A stretch of DNA of 64,000 nucleotides from a bacterium (GTDB lineage Bacteria; Myxococcota_A; UBA9160; UBA6930), in contig JAAETT010000177.1 in the NCBI GenBank assembly GCA_024228115.1, forward strand, positions 689 through 64,688, read 5' to 3'. Numbering within the stretch: the first letter of the stretch is position 1; every line of letters starts with the position of its first letter. The position numbers and the translations under genes were made by a program. Shown here piece by piece: positions 45,001 to 55,462 of the stretch. Under the pieces are notes generated by a model, which had not been told where the DNA came from, ran no database searches, and worked only from the letters and a program-made list of their open reading frames with translations.

Positions 45001-48000
45001 GCTCGACGCGATCGATCGCCTCGACCGCATCGCCGACGACCTCGACCTCGTCCACGACGTCGACCAACGACTCGAGATCGATGGAATTGAGGAAATCGAT
45101 GACCGCATTTACCGCGGGTTCGGCGATCGCGATCGCATCGATGCCTTCGTCCACCGCGCCGAAGCTGCGGGTCAGATTCTCGACGTTGATCGAGTCCGCG
45201 GCGATCGTGACATCACCCGGGGAACGCACCGTGCCAGCGAAGAAGGCCTCGACGATCGAATCGTAGTCACTGACAGCAACGGTCGAGCCGTAGCCCGCGC
45301 CGCCGCCGCCCGCGTAGCCTCCCGAGAGGGCTTGCGTGCGGAAGGTATTCGAACCCGTCGCCTCGGCGAACAGATTCGCGGCCTCGAACGAGGCGCCGGG
45401 CTTCACATCCAAGCGGGCCGCAGTGCGACCCTTGCCGTAGGCCACCGAGACGTTTGCGGCGTCTCCGCTCTCGCCGATCAGCGCAGAGTCCTGGCGATGA
45501 TTCGCGACTCGCGCGGCCGCGGCGCCGTCCGCGTCGACCGCGGCGAAGCTACCTGCCGTCCCGTTGACGAATTGGATCGCTCCCTCGGCACCTTCCTGGA
45601 CCGTGATCGCGTCGGCCACGCCGACCGCCAGGTCGACGGCGGCCTGAAGGTCGGCGATCAGGTCGGAGCTCTCGGCGTTGTCCAGCGTGGTGGTCGGGTC
45701 GACCTCGACCGAGAAGGTCTGAGCGTCGGCCACCAGGTCGAACGCGAAGGCGATGCTGCCCACACGCACCTCGACGTCGACCAGATTCGTGGCCGAGGCG
45801 ATCGTCGAGACGTCCCCGGCCGCTTCGACCGCGGCGCCCGCGTGAACGTGGATCTCTGCGGTCGGCGTCGAACTCCCGTAGGAGACGCCCAGGAATCGAC
45901 CGTTGGTCGTCAGGTCGGCGGACGAATCGGCGTCGGCCCGAATCACGACGTCGCCGTCCGCTCGAATCCGTGCTCCCTCGCGCACCGTCACGCGTGACAG
46001 CGAGGCCGACGAGATCGCCGCCGCGGCGCTCGACAACTCGAACAAACGACCCTCGTCGATGTCGAACTCCAGCTGCGCATCGAGCTGCGAATCGGGATCC
46101 CCGGACGTGTCCGCGAGCTTCGCGATCGACGCGGCCGTCGCGACGGTGACGTTCCCGCCGTAGAGCTGGGAGCCCGCGCCGAGGTCGATCAGCGAGGCCG
46201 TCAGATCGGTCAGGCCGAGCTGGAAGAAGTCGCCGTCCAGCGTCCACGTGAGATCGTCATCGCGCTCGGCCCGAAGCTCGAGGTCGCCGTCCGCGAACGC
46301 CCCATCGCCGTCGGCGCGAACCACGACGCCCGCTCCGAGCTGGATCGTCGGTGCGGCGAGCAGAATCTCACCCGAGGCACCGGTCGACCCCCCCAGCGCG
46401 TCCTCGAGGCGGCTGGAGATCGAGACCCCTTCGGCGACGAAGATGCCCTCGGTCGCCTGCAGCGTGAGGTCTCCGACGCCCAGCCCCCCCAGATCGCCGA
46501 CGATCGTGAGACGGCCCTGGACGGACAGGTCGAGGGTGTCACGCGTGGCGTCGCCATCACCGGAGACGGTGCCGAGGACGAAGTCGCCGGTCTCGACCCG
46601 GACCACGTCGCCGCTCAGCACCAGGTCGACGCCGTCGCCGAGGTCGGCGGGGATCAGCAGGTCGAAGCTCGTGGAGAGGTCCGGATACACGAACTCCGGA
46701 ACGACGCCTCCCGCGACCTTGTTGGGGTCGGTGGTCGCGTCGTCGCCCAGGTCCGGGAACGCGAGATCCGCGTTCTCCCAATCTCGGAAGAGCGAGCGGA
46801 ACGCGGGCCGCAAGAGATCGCTCTCCCACAGCGCGAAGTTCCCGCCGCCCTGTTCGAAGGCGAGATCGGACCAGGCCCCGCTCTCGACGTACCCGTCGAC
46901 GTCGTTCGCGAAGGCGAAATCGGCATCGCGCGAGAGCTCGACGAGAGTCGCCTCCCCTGTCTCCAGGGATACGATCCGGACGGGCCCCGCGACGACGAAG
47001 CCATCCCCGGCGTTGCTGATCTCGACCGCCAGCGAGCCCGTTGAGACGTCGAAACTGCCTAGGCTCTGGAAGGTAAGCTCGACCGTGCCGGTGTCGGAGA
47101 CCGGGACGTCCACCCGTTCACCGACGGGGAAGAAGCGCTGACTGATCGACGCGGTGCCCACCTCGGTGGTGCCGTCCAAGACGCGGTAGGGCACATCGGT
47201 CGCCGGGTCGATCTCGCCCCGCGTCGCCCAGGTGACTTGAACGTCGTACGCACCGGCTGACAGACCGTCGAACGTGACCCGGGTCGTGGAGCTTCCATCG
47301 CCCGGGGCGGCGAAGCGGTACTTCGCCGTCGTCGACGTCAGGTTGTCTTCGCGCCACACGTGATCGCGGTCGATCGACGTGAGCCAGGGGCTCTCGTCGG
47401 CGGGGCGTTGCTCCCGCCCCCCCTCCGACAGGGCCTCGAGAACGTTCGTCGACACGGTCTCGCCCGGGCGCTGAACGGTGGCCGTGAACACGTTCCCGCC
47501 GTGCGCGCCGTGGAGATTCAGCAGGCCGAAATCGTAGGACGGGAGGTCGACCCCTCCCGCGCCCGGCAACGTGATCGCCCCGTCGCCGTCGACATCGATC
47601 CCCAGAATCGACCCGCCGCCATCGGCCAGCCCGACCAGGTTGGTCATCAACCGGCTCAGTTCGCCTTCGACCTCGCCGCCACCGAGCGGGTCGGCTTCGT
47701 GCAAGAGCACGAGCTTGGCGAGCGTGACCGAGTTCCGGTACCCGGCGAACCGGTCCTTGTCGAACTCGACGTTGTCGTTGAGTCGCCCGGCGGCGTCGTC
47801 GTGGAACGCCAGACCCAGACCGGGGTTCTCCGCGACGATCTGCTCGAGTTCGTCGAGGCCGCTCTGCACGTCGGTCCCGGTGAGGGCGTCGAGGGTGTCG
47901 ACGACCGGGCCCACCACGTCGTCGAAGGGAACCGCTCGCGACGCTCCTTCGATGCCGAGGATTTCGTCGAGACGCTCGCGATCTCCCTCCTCGAAGATCG

Positions 48001-54600: not shown

Positions 54601-55462
54601 TCGCCGGAGAGCTGTCGTCGGAGAAGTCACAGGGCCCGGCGGAGCAGTCCGAATCGCTGGTGCACATCGCGCCGTCCGCGCAGAGGCCAACGAGTTGGCA
54701 TGACGAATTGCAGTCGGAGTCTTCGGTGCACGAGACCGATGTGCACTGGTTGTCGGTGCACGAGCCACTGCAGTCCGCGTCCGACGCACAAGTGGAGCCA
54801 GCATCCGTGCAGAGACCGCGGTCTGAGTTGCCGTCGAACCCGGGGGTGGCATCCCCGACGTATCCCTCGGCGATGGTGTGACGAATCGCGATGCCGGCGT
54901 CGTCGTCACGCGACAGCACGTCCGCCACGCCGGGAAAGGCTCCGCGGGCGAAGTCATTGACCATCGTATGGCCCCACATGTCACCCGCAGCATGGGTCAG
55001 GAAGCCGTACGCGAAGGCGAGGGCCTGCTCTTTCTGCTCCGCCGTCAAGGGATTGCCGTCCGCGTCGACGGCGGCGCCATCCTGATCCGCCCACGCGCTG
55101 CTGAGCACGTGCTGGAGCCATTCGCCGGTGAGCTCCGGGTGAATCGTCGACTGCCCGTAGGTCAGGTCCGGGAAGCCATCGGGCCCGATCACACCGGCGT
55201 TGTAGTAGGCCGGCCAGCTTCGCAACGCCGTAACGAGTGCCGGGTCGAGGGCGTAGTGGTTGCCGTTGACCTCGACGTCGCCGCCGCCCTCGTTGGTCCC
55301 ACCTGAGGCACACGCGACGGGGTCGTCGCAAGAGATGGCATCATCGTAGGCCTGAAAGGCGGTCGTATTGTGGGTATACGGCTTCCATGCCCCGGAGGGA
55401 CTGGCGACGAGCAGAGCGGCCAGCACGGTGAGGGGCAACAACCCGGAGCGTAGACTTGTCAT
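51581..55462 (-). CDS. Secreted Cys-rich Zn-PLC-like protein (1293 aa), paralogue of the giant protein's head
   Basis: ATG 55462. Signal peptide MTSLRSGLLPLTVLAALLVASPSGAW. PLC-like ligand motifs and a long collinear match to giant-gene region 46740-49345. Clean composition, unlike the overlapping shadow ORFs. Confidence 0.9.
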   Translation of the reverse strand: MTSLRSGLLPLTVLAALLVASPSGAWKPYTHNTTAFQAYDDAISCDDPVACASGGTNEGGGDVEVNGNHYALDPALVTALRSWPAYYNAGVIGPDGFPDLTYGQSTIHPELTGEWLQHVLSSAWADQDGAAVDADGNPLTAEQKEQALAFAYGFLTHAAGDMWGHTMVNDFARGAFPGVADVLSRDDDAGIAIRHTIAEGYVGDATPGFDGNSDRGLCTDAGSTCASDADCSGSCTDNQCTSVSCTEDSDCNSSCQLVGLCADGAMCTSDSDCSAGPCDFSDDSSPAISFAAPSDFIYRTLIDPSAATPLDGRGPLIGFFLDLRADLASYRDGLNGDLSQVDDLTDLVDDFQADDAIVAAAEGILADIETDVAAVNTQCAVTTETVEACITLPALLGGGEFCSGDASVQCDFQFQNLCNLCTDVGGTVSNGECFPPAEVSIDVVSDPLACVLSLGDLSVSVAAASAQSVFSSVSFDSLPSLSIPPTPAEISAIGSFLTDNTIVADAQTAVLLAQQSLEVARELLLKLYIDAWIDDIDQGLRGWPEGVGLATTRGLFDPQARRDFIQNTPGVQGASGVPISGGCANLCNPAEGGDDTSTLCVTCEAGIGLGAVTSAQLDPFLASDIPKMLGFPDDIVDLQVILFDFVGDLTLTLVSSLRGPLNPLVSTVADVQIWFSDLYILVFKEVFGIDVEALDEFLYNAPQYICLDDDTPEGVGSFDFPAAVPSGGDITLFPPSLMTPDPVEEDDRLDDFVLNLVLPQMTHHEPPPDPNFEDGCGPLKDEAEVAFGDGAADAVAASDLLEDEAGPLTNTVTLSKLLLLGGSELNRLLGDMTGRTIATYADGTVPANVMVNGLGTVDLSGFDPAYGEVDTWLRSIDGDHHWRKDGAPRFCDLEDDIDCCPSGAPFCTQEADHVDQDPTCGVGDGPCPREALLNGGNGNMPLFESCVLRPAFRELFIDWENGDETFPDLNDDTSADPSNDPSAPAANLAVSGSSFVGANLFVAAGNQLTLSAVDTPAGQGFADEDLALELRVYASGDTPGSFAAAEQGETFSLVGVDGDFVVEYRSGDPCHPIADVTATMQTATLDTTAPTVSCGGGSGGTFDTDTQVSVSYSADDGDGAGVASAEGQVDGFLATGGTAAAPAGSSLDAYELLPGTRTVLVDAEDEVANADQVPCEFEVHATSESLVANLERATTEGDIPESVATTLQLSLSRAQRWHRLGQFEREKQDLQRFADLLGGAAGQVNAQTSARLVEFALDAIQQLPASGSVCGIGIELVLLVPLVRRLRLRRRNR
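54625..54815 (-). other. Cys-rich insert with a thrice-repeated C-x-[ST]-D-[AS]-D-C-x(2,3)-C motif
   Basis: GLCTDAGSTCASDADCSGSCTDNQCTSVSCTEDSDCNSSCQLVGLCADGAMCTSDSDCSAGPCDF. The giant paralogue has no counterpart at this position (it reads DANGARSLLVDGDISDDATPGIEFDAP). Confidence 0.6.
54860..55390 (-). other. Zn-dependent phospholipase C-like domain of the 1293-aa protein
   Basis: WKPYTHNT (His), GVIGPDGFPD (Asp), QSTIHPE (His), GFLTHAAGDMWGHTMVN (His, Asp +4, His +8), AIRHTIAEGY (His, Glu +4). Confidence 0.7.

What the first reader, a model, noticed from the sequence alone, without database searches (positions are those of the whole stretch)
46740..55462. Paralogue pair with contrasting export signals: Cys-free giant head versus Sec-signal, Cys-rich, sorting-tagged 1293-aa copy
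The 1293-aa protein (51581..55462) aligns collinearly with residues ~300-1170 of the giant protein but differs in three systematic ways.
- It has a classical signal peptide; the giant has a basic LEPR-x-LL leader.
- It carries several Cys-rich inserts (13 Cys in 54625-54815, and further clusters such as FCDLEDDIDCCPSGAPFCTQ). I found no Cys in any giant-gene segment I translated, roughly 2,800 residues.
- It ends in SGSVCGIGIELVLLVPLVRRLRLRRRNR, a tripartite tail of the MYXO-CTERM/PEP-CTERM type.
This is the contrast expected between a periplasm-transiting, disulfide-stabilised, sorted surface protein and a protein exported unfolded without a periplasmic stage. The two genes are co-directional and lie about 1.3 kb apart.
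Basis: partly seen in the sequence, partly recalled or inferred. Interest (0 to 1): 0.7.

Follow-up and report, generated by a model that had tools for sequence, protein, structure and literature searches.

The report
Two export formats of one phospholipase-C-like module
A secreted 1293-residue, disulfide-rich protein and the head of a cysteine-free protein of more than 16,700 residues carry the same zinc-phospholipase-C-like module, but they belong to two old subfamilies rather than being a recent duplicate pair, and each places a removable segment directly before the module's first aromatic residue.

Summary
The minus strand is open from 50281 to the window start. From ATG 50269 it encodes at least 16,756 residues with no cysteine, against about 213 expected. 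The upstream 1293-aa protein (P2, 51581..55462) has 39 cysteines and aligns collinearly with giant residues 308-1184.

The shared unit is a roughly 880-aa module with a distant Zn-dependent phospholipase C N-domain. All putative metal ligands are conserved in both copies.

The two copies are not recent paralogues. P2 belongs to a Sec-type clade of about 1000-aa proteins that begin signal peptide, AxA|[W/F]KPYTH and carry six conserved cysteines. The giant head belongs to a nearly cysteine-free clade built as LEPR-XLL leader, metzincin-like domain, PLxEVA|[F/W]KPYTH.

The cysteine contrast is family-wide. It also persists in monoderm giants that have Sec-like signals, so it does not simply report the export route.

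P2's 31-residue tail is unique among the 169 family proteins checked for such tails. No sorting-signal model recognises it, although a neighbouring gene is a recognised PEP-CTERM protein.

My best model is that both formats expose a free N-terminal aromatic residue, as classical PLCs require. Signal peptidase would do this in P2. A built-in protease domain would do it in the giant.

The parts
2..50269 (-). Giant ORF of at least 16,756 codons, open past the window start, with 0 Cys, 16% D+E and 4% K+R.
50129..50269 (-). Basic leader (aa 1-47) containing the LEPR-XLL motif LEALEPRILLSA (aa 33-44). It has no hydrophobic h-region.
   Evidence: NF012209 scores 27.7/31.7 bits against a cutoff of 17. 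The AF2 model is disordered over residues 1-119.
49397..49912 (-). Metzincin-like alpha/beta domain (aa 120-291) with HELGHIIGGESH at aa 282-293. The third His is shifted by one residue relative to the clade consensus HExGHLLGxxH.
   Evidence: Alignment A1. pLDDT is 80-95. Relatives carry Pfam Peptidase_M10 or Reprolysin_5 hits.
49343..49396 (-). Junction: a low-confidence linker (aa 292-308) ending in PLDEVA, followed by F309, the first residue of the module. This is the proposed processing site A308|F309.
   Evidence: The PLxEVA|[FWY] junction is conserved; 27 of 27 metzincin-type relatives have A or G at -1. Linker pLDDT is below 50.
48830..49345 (-). Zn-PLC-like N-domain of the giant (aa 309-480). 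Conserved positions are F309, H314, D363/D367, H376, H418, D422, H426, H456 and E460.
   Evidence: PF00882 scores 26.8 bits, equal to the cutoff. The ligand columns are invariant across 50 sequences.
46700..48829 (-). Rest of the shared module (aa 481-1190). It is a helical region plus a beta-sandwich insert (aa 978-1140, 46850-47338) that P2 lacks.
   Evidence: (Golvesin_C 22.4 bits, below cutoff)
14270..46672 (-). Body of divergent repeats at 25-38% identity (aa 1200-12000). It includes LktA_tand_53 repeats (about aa 2580) and FG-GAP repeats (about aa 2950-4410).
1250..1630 (-). RTX nonapeptide block (aa 16214-16340). It is followed by a dockerin-like motif (896-922), a second HExxHxxGxxH (452-484) and hexapeptide repeats.
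   Evidence: PF00353 scores 59.9 bits. NF033943 matches the region.
50723..51403 (-). Intervening 226-aa ORF with a signal peptide and an end of VPEP, hydrophobic stretch, RGRRRRV. It looks PEP-CTERM-like by eye but is not recognised by any model.
51581..55462 (-). P2, 1293 aa with 39 Cys. It is identical to NCBI 'MAG: hypothetical protein GY937_09115 [bacterium]'.
55388..55462 (-). P2 Sec signal peptide, MTSLRSGLLPLTVLAALLVASPSGA. Predicted cleavage is SGA|W26.
   Evidence: Read from the sequence. The same AxA|[WF]KPYTH junction occurs in 118 relatives.
54806..55387 (-). P2 Zn-PLC-like N-domain (aa 26-219), starting at W26.
   Evidence: PF00882 scores 19-23.5 bits, below the cutoff. All ligand columns are conserved. 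The AF2 model has pLDDT 79.5 and is all-alpha.
54629..54811 (-). P2-specific Cys-rich insert (aa 218-278, 12 Cys). P2-only inserts together hold 20 of its 39 Cys.
51701..51910 (-). FIMAH-like C-terminal domain of P2 (aa 1185-1254). This is the normal end of the Sec-type family.
   Evidence: PF22888 scores 18.8 bits against a cutoff of 24.8. Family C-termini are listed.
51584..51676 (-). P2-only 31-residue tail LPASGSVCGIGIELVLLVPLVRRLRLRRRNR: one Cys, a 15-residue hydrophobic stretch containing a Glu, then an Arg-rich end. It is an orphan anchor or sorting tail.
   Evidence: It is unique among 169 family proteins and absent from 15 aligned relatives. No NCBIfam model hits it.
56467..57306 (-). 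279-aa PEP-CTERM protein upstream of P2. It is the positive control, and it shows that this organism makes proteins with recognised PEP-CTERM ends.
   Evidence: PF07589 scores 28.6 against a cutoff of 20.7. TIGR02595 scores 17.7 against 16.

Best explanation
**What the two genes are.** They carry members of one widespread, uncharacterised module of about 880 aa. Its N-domain is a distant relative of Zn-dependent phospholipase C, so the module is most likely a metal-dependent phosphodiesterase acting on lipids. The two copies come from two ancient subfamilies with different delivery formats.

**P2, the Sec format.**
- It is exported through Sec.
- Signal peptidase I cuts at SGA|W26, so the module's aromatic first residue becomes the free N-terminus.
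- The protein folds with disulfides, using six family-conserved Cys plus about 20 lineage-specific ones.
- It is held at or sorted from the membrane by a lineage-specific C-terminal hydrophobic and Arg-rich tail.

**The giant, the LEPR-XLL format.**
- A basic LEPR-XLL leader and a metzincin-like domain precede the module through a conserved, flexible PLDEVA|F309 junction.
- The module heads a cysteine-free, highly acidic repeat fibre of more than 15,000 residues with an RTX block.
- It is probably exported unfolded by a type I-like route and folds outside the cell with Ca2+.

**Inferred mechanism.** In classical PC-PLC a free N-terminal W or F is needed for activity, and a metalloprotease removes the propeptide. 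I infer the same logic here. The leader plus metzincin region would act as a pro-region, and cleavage at A308|F309, possibly by the fused protease itself, would activate the head.

**Shown:** homology, the clade split, the Cys dichotomy, ligand conservation and junction conservation. **Inferred:** enzymatic activity, cleavage, the type I route and the role of the tail.
For: **Homology and anatomy.**
- The two proteins align collinearly.
- PF00882 is the only Pfam family hit by 19 of 20 N-domains, best E 1.5e-8. The giant scores exactly the gathering threshold.
- The H/D/E ligand columns and the +1 aromatic are invariant across both clades.

**Two clades.**
- The NJ tree and identities separate them: 36% between the two copies, against 45-57% to relatives in other phyla.
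- Six conserved Cys columns occur only in the Sec type.
- A census of 289 proteins gives 168 Sec-like members with a median of 1.19 Cys per 100 aa. The 25 LEPR+metzincin members have 0.04, the 4 LEPR-direct members 0.02 and the 5 metzincin-only members 0.0.
- GTDB loci of this clade (LEPR leader and/or metzincin domain) show ORFs running more than 4,300 aa past the flank, mostly with 0-6 Cys (up to 10).

**Junctions.**
- AxA|[WF]KPYTH occurs in 118 of 118 Sec-type members.
- PLxEVA|[FWY] occurs in 27 of 27 metzincin-type members.
- LExRxxL|F, with exactly three residues between R and F, occurs in the direct-fusion proteins P0128/L067, P0151, L076 and L079.
- The linker has pLDDT below 50.

**Precedent.** In Listeria PC-PLC the W1 position is invariant, W1F retains activity, one extra N-terminal residue abolishes activity, and the propeptide is removed by the metalloprotease Mpl (PMC10576769).

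**Export.**
- The leader matches LEPR-XLL.
- An RTX block is present.
- Cys is 0 against about 213 expected.
- LEPR-XLL leaders head other giant proteins with C-terminal RTX domains (PMC10868602; bioRxiv 10.64898/2026.03.19.712371). The related motif was proposed as an export signal in Planctomycetes (PMC8567305).
Against: - No structural or profile match to solved PLC or P1 nuclease. Foldseek against PDB gives nothing at E<=1e-3 for either model. The family profile against PDB sequences gives nothing. hhalign against 1AH7 gives probability 0.1, E 0.54.
- P2 itself is below the Pfam threshold.
- The giant's own metzincin motif has Ser at the third-His column, so it may be inactive.
- No type I secretion genes lie in the 13.7 kb upstream, and the giant's C-terminus is not in the window.
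- RTX repeats also occur in Sec-type members that keep their Cys (P0152-P0154, P0108).
- Monoderm giants with Sec-like signals are also almost Cys-free. Absence of Cys may therefore reflect the giant, Ca-folding architecture or clade history rather than the route.
- The tail is seen in a single sequence, so conservation cannot validate it.
Confidence: 0.62

Rival explanations
1. A recent local duplication produced two copies that then diverged under different export constraints. P2 is a sorted surface protein with a MYXO-CTERM or PEP-CTERM tag that is processed by a dedicated sortase.
For: - The two genes are adjacent, co-directional and collinear.
- The tail has the outline of Cys or small residues, a hydrophobic stretch, then Arg-rich residues.
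- Two flanking genes have PEP-CTERM-type ends, so an exosortase system probably exists in this organism.
Against: - The tree and identities put the copies among the most distant pairs in the family.
- Each subfamily spans several phyla.
- The adjacency is not conserved around P0002 or P0121.
- No sorting-signal HMM hits the tail, even alone at E<=10.
- The PEP motif is absent.
- None of 168 other family proteins has such a tail.
Confidence: 0.15
2. The absence of Cys in the giant is not caused by its export route. It is a property of very long, acidic, Ca2+-folding repeat proteins, which avoid mispaired disulfides, or it is simply inherited with the clade. On this view the contrast with P2 says nothing specific about a periplasmic stage.
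For: - Monoderm members of the same clade (L012, L021, L025, L034) have Sec-like signals or a transmembrane start. They hold only 3-4 Cys in 1,500-4,800 residues, some of them inside the signal.
- Stand-alone LEPR heads of 1,200-1,400 aa are also Cys-free, for example P0125 and P0128.
Against: - In the same phyla the Sec-type members keep their six Cys.
- P0151 is the one LEPR-direct protein that groups with the Sec-type clade and keeps some of its Cys (7 in all; C in the five alignable conserved columns, S at the sixth), so route and Cys content are not perfectly linked either way.
- Selection against Cys is extreme: 0 observed against about 213 expected.
Confidence: 0.3
3. P2's tail is not a sorting signal. 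It is either a plain C-terminal membrane anchor that holds the enzyme on the outer face of the inner membrane, or a non-functional read-through extension past the family's usual stop.
For: - The tail is unique to P2 and no model recognises it.
- Its hydrophobic stretch is short and contains a Glu.
- The family normally ends a few residues after the FIMAH-like domain.
Against: - Third-position GC content of the tail is close to that of coding sequence.
- The outline of one Cys, about 15 hydrophobic residues and 7 basic residues of the last 12 matches what sorting tails look like.
- Both flanking genes end in similar tails.
Confidence: 0.35

Closest known systems
Zn-dependent phospholipase C (Pfam PF00882): Bacillus cereus PC-PLC 1AH7, Clostridium perfringens alpha-toxin, Listeria PC-PLC with its activating metalloprotease Mpl
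   Same: - The N-domain is all-alpha.
- The mature protein starts at an aromatic residue directly after a removed leader.
- The domain shares the HxxGD and HxxxE motifs and a set of conserved H/D/E residues.
- W and F are the two residues found at +1, and W1F is the one substitution that keeps LmPC-PLC active.
- A metalloprotease is paired with the PLC. In Listeria it is a separate protein; here it is a fused domain.
   Different: - The module is about 880 aa rather than about 245.
- There is no significant sequence-profile or Foldseek match to any solved PLC.
- P2 is below the Pfam threshold.
- Activity and substrate are untested.
LEPR-XLL domain-containing giant proteins (NCBIfam NF012209). 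Examples are Chlorochromatium Cag_663 and Cag_665, a Vibrio protein of about 8000 aa, and the Planctomycetes RRLxxExLExRxLLA leader.
   Same: - A basic N-terminal leader carries LEPRxLLSA.
- The protein is very large and repetitive.
- An RTX block lies towards the C-terminus.
   Different: - Here the leader is followed by a metzincin-like domain and a PLC-like module.
- The function and processing of the leader are unknown in the literature I could search.
Giant RTX adhesins exported by type I secretion (LapA and MpIBP class). This comparison rests on my own knowledge.
   Same: - Repetitive acidic body.
- RTX repeats.
- Very few or no Cys.
- An N-terminal element distinct from a Sec signal.
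   Different: - No retention-module model hit.
- No ABC, MFP or OMF genes in the window.
- The C-terminal signal cannot be seen.
- The head is enzymatic rather than an adhesin.
C-terminal sorting tails: PEP-CTERM with exosortase and MYXO-CTERM with myxosortase
   Same: - The tail is at the C-terminus.
- A short motif region is followed by a hydrophobic stretch and then a basic cluster.
- The flanking genes have PEP-CTERM-type ends.
   Different: - P2 has no PEP motif.
- No HMM hit for any NCBIfam model, sorting-tail families included.
- The tail is a single occurrence.

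Membership tests
Zn-dependent phospholipase C (PF00882) | The Pfam HMM score reaches the gathering threshold of 26.8 bits. | tested here: inconclusive
   The giant head scores 26.8 bits, exactly the cutoff. P2 scores 19.0 bits as a whole protein and 23.5 bits for the N-domain alone, both below it. 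Nineteen of 20 family N-domains hit at E<=0.01, best 1.5e-8, and no other family is hit.
Zn-dependent phospholipase C (PF00882) | The set of His/Asp/Glu metal ligands is conserved. | tested here: inconclusive
   H314, D363/D367, H376, H418, D422, H426, H456 and E460 (giant numbering) are invariant or nearly so in 50 sequences of both clades. Their mapping onto the 1AH7 ligands rests on motif resemblance and a non-significant hhalign result.
Zn-dependent phospholipase C (PF00882) | The mature protein has a free N-terminal Trp or Phe. | tested here: inconclusive
   P2 and 118 relatives have a signal-peptidase AxA site directly before [WF]. For the giant this requires cleavage at A308|F309, which is inferred and not shown.
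Zn-dependent phospholipase C (PF00882) | The fold is similar to a solved PLC or P1 nuclease. | tested here: not met
LEPR-XLL domain proteins (NF012209) | The N-terminal 24-aa domain scores above the curated cutoff and heads a very large protein. | tested here: met
   It scores 27.7 bits in the 1500-aa head and 31.7 bits alone, against a cutoff of 17, at aa 33-47. The protein is at least 16,756 aa.
Type I secretion (RTX) substrate | RTX nonapeptide repeats are present. | tested here: met
   PF00353 scores 59.9 bits against a cutoff of 23. Nine GGxGxD motifs lie at aa 16214-16331.
Type I secretion (RTX) substrate | An uncleaved C-terminal secretion signal. | not testable with these tools
   The ORF is still open at window base 2, so the C-terminus is not available.
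Type I secretion (RTX) substrate | Linked ABC transporter, membrane-fusion protein and outer-membrane factor genes. | tested here: not met
   None occur among the ORFs at 50.3-64 kb. Downstream of the gene is unknown. No conserved upstream neighbours were found in 29 related loci.
Sec signal peptide (P2) | n, h and c regions are present with small residues at -3 and -1. | tested here: met
   The sequence is MTSLR / SGLLPLTVLAALLVA / SPSGA|W. The junction is shared by 118 relatives. SignalP was not available.
PEP-CTERM (TIGR02595 / PF07589) | An HMM hit, with a PEP motif before the hydrophobic stretch. | tested here: not met
   P2 gives no hit as a whole protein or as the tail alone at E<=10. 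The motif reads LPASGS. The neighbouring gene 56467..57306 hits both models.
MYXO-CTERM (TIGR03901) | An HMM hit. The Cys-containing motif, hydrophobic stretch and Arg cluster are features recalled from my own knowledge of the family. | tested here: not met
   No NCBIfam hit at E<=10. By eye there is one Cys (SVCG), 15 hydrophobic residues and an Arg-rich end. The presence of a myxosortase cannot be tested from one window.
Metzincin metalloprotease | The HExxHxxGxxH zinc motif. | tested here: inconclusive
   Clade relatives have HExGHLLGxxH, and some hit Peptidase_M10 or Reprolysin_5. The giant has HELGHIIGGESH, with the third His one residue late. No Pfam hit for this region of the giant head at E<=0.01.
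FIMAH domain (PF22888) | The HMM score reaches the threshold of 24.8 bits. | tested here: inconclusive
   P2 aa 1185-1254 scores 18.8 bits. Several relatives have precomputed PF22888 hits.

The most novel reading that the evidence does not exclude
**The claim.** The three N-terminal formats of this module all place a removable element exactly before the aromatic +1 residue that a PLC-type metal site needs as a free N-terminus. The formats are a Sec signal (AxA|W/F), a metzincin pro-region (PLxEVA|F/W) and a directly fused LEPR-XLL leader (LExRxxL|F, always three residues after the Arg).

**What would follow.**
- The LEPR-XLL leader that heads many of the largest bacterial proteins would be a cleaved signal, with its processing site immediately after LEPRxLL.
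- The fused metzincin domain would be a built-in zymogen activator, a one-polypeptide version of Listeria Mpl with PC-PLC. It would keep the phospholipase head inactive until the giant protein is outside the cell.
Probability: 0.3. Interest if true: 0.75.

Novelty: new variant of a known kind. Interest (0 to 1): 0.5.

Why it matters
The module defines about 1,100-1,300 clusters at 50% identity. It has no characterised member and no solved structure.

The pair in this window shows how one enzyme module has been adapted to two delivery formats. Whole sets of disulfide cysteines are either kept or erased between them.

If the +1-aromatic logic holds, it gives the first concrete, testable processing site for the LEPR-XLL leader. 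That leader heads many very large bacterial proteins, and its role is unknown.

The logic also gives a simple rationale for fusing a protease domain to a phospholipase-like head: the enzyme would be activated only after export.

The neighbourhood adds a lipase, a GDSL/PlaC-like lysophospholipase and two LNS2-type phosphatases. This suggests a secreted lipid-attacking toolkit.

Tried and rejected
- **Sequence searches against PDB.** phmmer with each protein gave nothing relevant (one E 0.48 hit to a response regulator for the giant head, none for P2), and so did the family profile.
- **Comparison with a true PLC.** hhalign of the family profile against 1AH7 aligned the HxxGD motif but was not significant. 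I first verified that my recalled sequence was identical to the PDB chain.
- **The tail.** An NCBIfam scan of the tail alone gave no sorting model.
- **Source contig.** An exact look-up of P2's contig found nothing on record, so the rest of the MAG could not be searched for sortase or type I secretion genes.
- **Conserved neighbours.** A search upstream of 29 related giant genes found none.
- **Adjacency.** It is not conserved around the closest relative of either protein.
- **Artefact reading.** I rejected the idea that the giant ORF is an artefact, because 16,760 stop-free codons with strong codon-position bias cannot arise by chance. The long plus-strand ORFs opposite it are the artefacts.
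- **Cloning-scar reading.** I rejected reading the NheI+BamHI 12-mer at the tail junction as a cloning scar. It is a single occurrence in an environmental MAG, and a 12-mer with up to one mismatch appears in 34 of 100 shuffles.

Full report
**1. What is in the sequence**

The minus strand has no stop codon from 50281 to base 2 and continues beyond the window. The ORF lister does not show it because it omits ORFs that run off an end. The only start is ATG 50269. From there the window encodes 16,756 residues with no cysteine.

Position-specific base frequencies predict about 213 Cys codons. TGC is 0 against 179 expected and TGT is 0 against 34, while TGG (92 against 128) and TAC (163 against 236) are near normal. 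Other genes in the window have 0.8-4% Cys. The protein is strongly acidic, with 16% D+E and 4% K+R.

P2 (51581..55462, minus strand, 1293 aa) has 39 Cys. It lies 1,311 bp upstream of the giant's start on the same strand. It is identical to an NCBI entry, 'MAG: hypothetical protein GY937_09115 [bacterium]', from a 65,427-bp contig.

BLASTP gives three collinear segments:
- P2 25-220 with giant 308-481, 43% identity, E 2e-42.
- P2 520-885 with giant 570-975, E 2e-11.
- P2 936-979 with giant 1141-1184, E 3e-13.

The 54625-54815 stretch holds 12 Cys, not 13. The 'gap' also holds a 226-aa same-strand ORF (50723..51403) with a signal peptide and a VPEP...RGRRRRV end.

**2. The shared unit**

Both proteins give only one relevant Pfam hit, Zn-dependent phospholipase C (PF00882). 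The giant scores 26.8 bits, exactly the threshold. P2 scores 19 bits. When 20 N-domains of the family are scanned alone, 19 hit PF00882 and nothing else, best E 1.5e-8.

In a 50-sequence alignment the following positions are invariant or nearly so in both clades (giant numbering):
- the aromatic first residue;
- H314, D363/D367 and H376;
- H418, D422 and H426;
- H456 and E460.

The spacing HxxxD...H and HxxxE recalls the tri-metal site of B. cereus PC-PLC. That mapping is my own reading.

The tests that could have confirmed it did not:
- The family profile finds no PDB sequence.
- hhalign against 1AH7 aligns the HxxGD motif at probability 0.1 only. I first verified that the sequence I used was identical to the PDB chain.
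- Foldseek against PDB finds no PLC with either AF2 model. The head model has pLDDT 77 and pTM 0.72; the P2 N-domain model has pLDDT 79.5.

I therefore treat the module as a distant PLC-superfamily relative with unknown substrate.

**3. Not a local duplicate: two old subfamilies**

P2's homologues are more than 200 proteins of about 1000 aa from Myxococcota, Chloroflexota and Actinomycetota. Nearly all read signal peptide, AxA|[W/F]KPYTH and end in a FIMAH-like domain without any tail.

The giant head's homologues are LEPR-XLL proteins from Burkholderiales, Rhodospirillaceae, Verrucomicrobiota, Planctomycetota, Acidobacteriota and others. They share this layout:
- a basic leader with LEPRxLLSA;
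- a domain of about 200 aa with HExGHLLGxxH (the metzincin motif; some relatives hit Peptidase_M10 or Reprolysin_5);
- a short linker;
- PLxEVA|[F/W/Y]KPYTH.

On 529 well-occupied columns the two window proteins are 36% identical. The giant head is 45-51% identical to other LEPR heads, and P2 is 52-57% identical to Myxococcota-type Sec members. The NJ tree puts them in separate deep clades.

The adjacency is not conserved around the closest relative of either protein. P0002 has no giant neighbour. P0121 is a complete stand-alone head of 1,360 aa.

A full HMMER scan of 1.84 billion representatives finds 1,334 clusters at E<=1e-3 and 1,127 at E<=1e-10. In the best 150 listed, the match lies within the first ~920 residues (at most ~600 in all but one).

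**4. The cysteine contrast is family-wide, but it is not a clean read-out of the route**

Six Cys columns are conserved in 12 to 16 of 16 Sec-type members. In P2 they are C410, C450, C583, C603, C946 and C1070. In the LEPR clade the same columns are G, A/I, D/E or deleted.

Among 289 family proteins the split is as follows:

| Format | Proteins | Median Cys per 100 aa |
|---|---|---|
| Sec-like | 168 | 1.19 (only 2 with none) |
| LEPR + metzincin | 25 | 0.04 |
| LEPR direct | 4 | 0.02 |
| Metzincin only | 5 | 0.0 |

In GTDB genomes, heads of this clade (with a LEPR leader and/or the metzincin domain) top ORFs that run more than 4,300 aa beyond the fetched flank, mostly with 0-6 Cys (up to 10).

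P2 adds about 20 Cys in P2-only inserts, including the 12-Cys stretch at aa 218-278.

There is an important caveat. Actinobacterial and Chloroflexota giants of the same clade (L012, L021, L025, L034) begin with Sec-like signal peptides or a transmembrane segment. They still have 3-4 Cys per 1,500-4,800 residues. Absence of Cys therefore tracks the clade and the giant format, not only a route that skips the periplasm.

**5. Export signals**

P2's N-terminus is a textbook Sec signal, MTSLR / SGLLPLTVLAALLVA / SPSGA|W. Conservation of the cleavage junction in 118 relatives supports it: -1 is A in 116 and G in 2, and -3 is A/V/S/G in 115.

The giant's leader is very basic and has no h-region. It hits NF012209 above the cutoff.

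The literature I could search says three things about this leader:
- LEPRxLL heads the 36,806-aa and 20,647-aa Chlorochromatium proteins (bioRxiv 10.64898/2026.03.19.712371).
- It heads a Vibrio protein of about 8000 aa that has C-terminal RTX and serralysin domains (PMC10868602).

The giant here has these further features:
- an RTX block at aa 16214-16340 (PF00353, 59.9 bits);
- after it, a dockerin-like motif, a second HExxHxxGxxH and hexapeptide repeats;
- LktA_tand_53 and FG-GAP repeats within about 11,000 residues of divergent repeats.

A type I-like route is plausible but unproven. The C-terminus is off the window. No transporter genes lie upstream. RTX repeats also occur in Sec-type, Cys-bearing members.

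**6. The tail**

P2 extends 31 residues beyond the family's normal end: LPASGSVCGIGIELVLLVPLVRRLRLRRRNR.
- It is the only such tail among 169 family proteins.
- It is absent from 15 aligned relatives.
- No NCBIfam or Pfam model recognises it, whether the whole protein is scanned or the tail alone at E<=10.

The positive control works. The 279-aa gene at 56467..57306 hits PF07589 (28.6 against 20.7) and TIGR02595 (17.7 against 16).

P2 therefore sits between two genes with PEP-CTERM-type ends, but it lacks the PEP motif itself. The tail may be a degenerate or new sorting tag, a plain membrane anchor, or a recent extension. One window cannot decide between these.

**7. Proposed mechanism**

The most informative regularity is what precedes the module's first residue:
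- In the Sec format it is the signal-peptidase site.
- In the metzincin format it is a conserved PLxEVA with A or G at -1 in 27 of 27 relatives. It lies in a linker that AF2 models with pLDDT below 50.
- In the direct-fusion proteins P0128/L067, P0151, L076 and L079, the LEPR motif abuts the aromatic residue with an identical register, LExRxxL|F. P0151 lies outside the clade that holds P0128, so this arrangement arose at least twice.

Classical PC-PLCs need a free N-terminal Trp. In Listeria PC-PLC, W1F is the only substitution that keeps activity, a single extra N-terminal residue abolishes activity, and the inactive proenzyme is matured by the metalloprotease Mpl (PMC10576769).

By analogy I propose that all three formats generate a free W or F N-terminus. 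In the giant, the leader plus metzincin region would be a pro-region removed at A308|F309. The cut could be made by the fused protease. A small P1 and an aromatic P1' fit general metzincin preferences, which I state from my own knowledge.

Two points weigh against this. The giant's third zinc-ligand His is displaced by one residue. Cleavage would also detach the leader from the fibre.

All of this is inference. None of the cleavage events has been observed.

**8. Verdict**

The finding is real and reproducible. Its interpretation needs revision in three ways:
- The two proteins are members of two ancient export formats of one PLC-like module, not a diverging duplicate pair.
- The cysteine dichotomy is a clade property, consistent with different folding environments but not proof of them.
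- The C-terminal tag is an orphan.

The components belong to known kinds: LEPR-XLL and RTX giant proteins, the Zn-PLC superfamily, and Sec-exported disulfide proteins. The combination, the family-wide +1-aromatic rule and the fused protease are new at the level of a variant.

Noticed in passing
window 50723-51403 (-) and 56467-57306 (-): Two small same-strand genes with signal peptides and PEP-CTERM-type ends flank P2. The upstream gene is recognised by PF07589 and TIGR02595. The gene between P2 and the giant ends in VPEP...RGRRRRV but hits no model.
   Followed up: partly
window 51659-51670 (-): The 12-mer GCTAGCGGATCC (NheI plus BamHI sites, coding ASGS) sits exactly where the P2-only tail begins. 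It holds the only GCTAGC in the 64 kb. This is probably chance: a 12-mer with up to one mismatch is found in 34 of 100 shuffles.
   Followed up: partly
window 57439-63943: The neighbourhood holds several lipid-related genes:
- a secreted alpha/beta lipase (60774..61784);
- a GDSL/PlaC-like lysophospholipase (63173..63943);
- two secreted LNS2/HAD phosphatase-like proteins (59634..60449 and 61972..62556);
- an MGT-type glycosyltransferase (58150..59463).

These are interspersed with IS66 (57439..58107) and IS5 (62784..63176) transposase fragments.
   Followed up: partly
window 452-484 and 896-922 (-): After the RTX block the giant carries a dockerin-like DLDGDGDVD motif and a second metzincin-type motif, THELAHIIGFEHDG, followed by hexapeptide repeats. 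The ORF is still open at the window edge.
   Followed up: no
window 49391-49426 (-): The giant's N-terminal metzincin motif reads HELGHIIGGESH. Every aligned relative that carries the metzincin domain has His at the column where the giant has Ser, and the giant's His comes one residue later. The domain may be inactive or altered.
   Followed up: partly
window 9113-15310 (+) and other long plus-strand ORFs between 1 and 50000: ORFs of up to 2,065 aa on the plus strand lie antisense to the giant gene. They are stop-poor antisense frames of a 67% GC coding region, not genes.
   Followed up: partly
L067 9815-22798, L076 9854-15553, L079 1179-8735, protein P0151: In these Planctomycetota-type proteins the LEPR-XLL motif is fused directly to the module as LExRxxL|F(K/N)PxTH. 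There are always three residues between the Arg and the Phe, with no metzincin domain in between.
   Followed up: partly
L012, L021, L025, L034 (Actinomycetota and Chloroflexota): Giants with the metzincin domain plus the module start with Sec-like signal peptides or a transmembrane segment instead of LEPR-XLL, yet remain almost Cys-free.
   Followed up: partly
proteins P0152-P0154 and P0108: These are Sec-type, Cys-bearing members of the family with C-terminal RTX repeats. RTX repeats in this family are therefore not restricted to the LEPR format.
   Followed up: no
L018 and L033 (same Spirochaetaceae contig); also two loci each in MAGs JABFSR01, JAHCKV01 and JANMHA01: Several genomes carry two or more genes of this module's metzincin/LEPR clade (at least one in each is a giant).
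   Followed up: no
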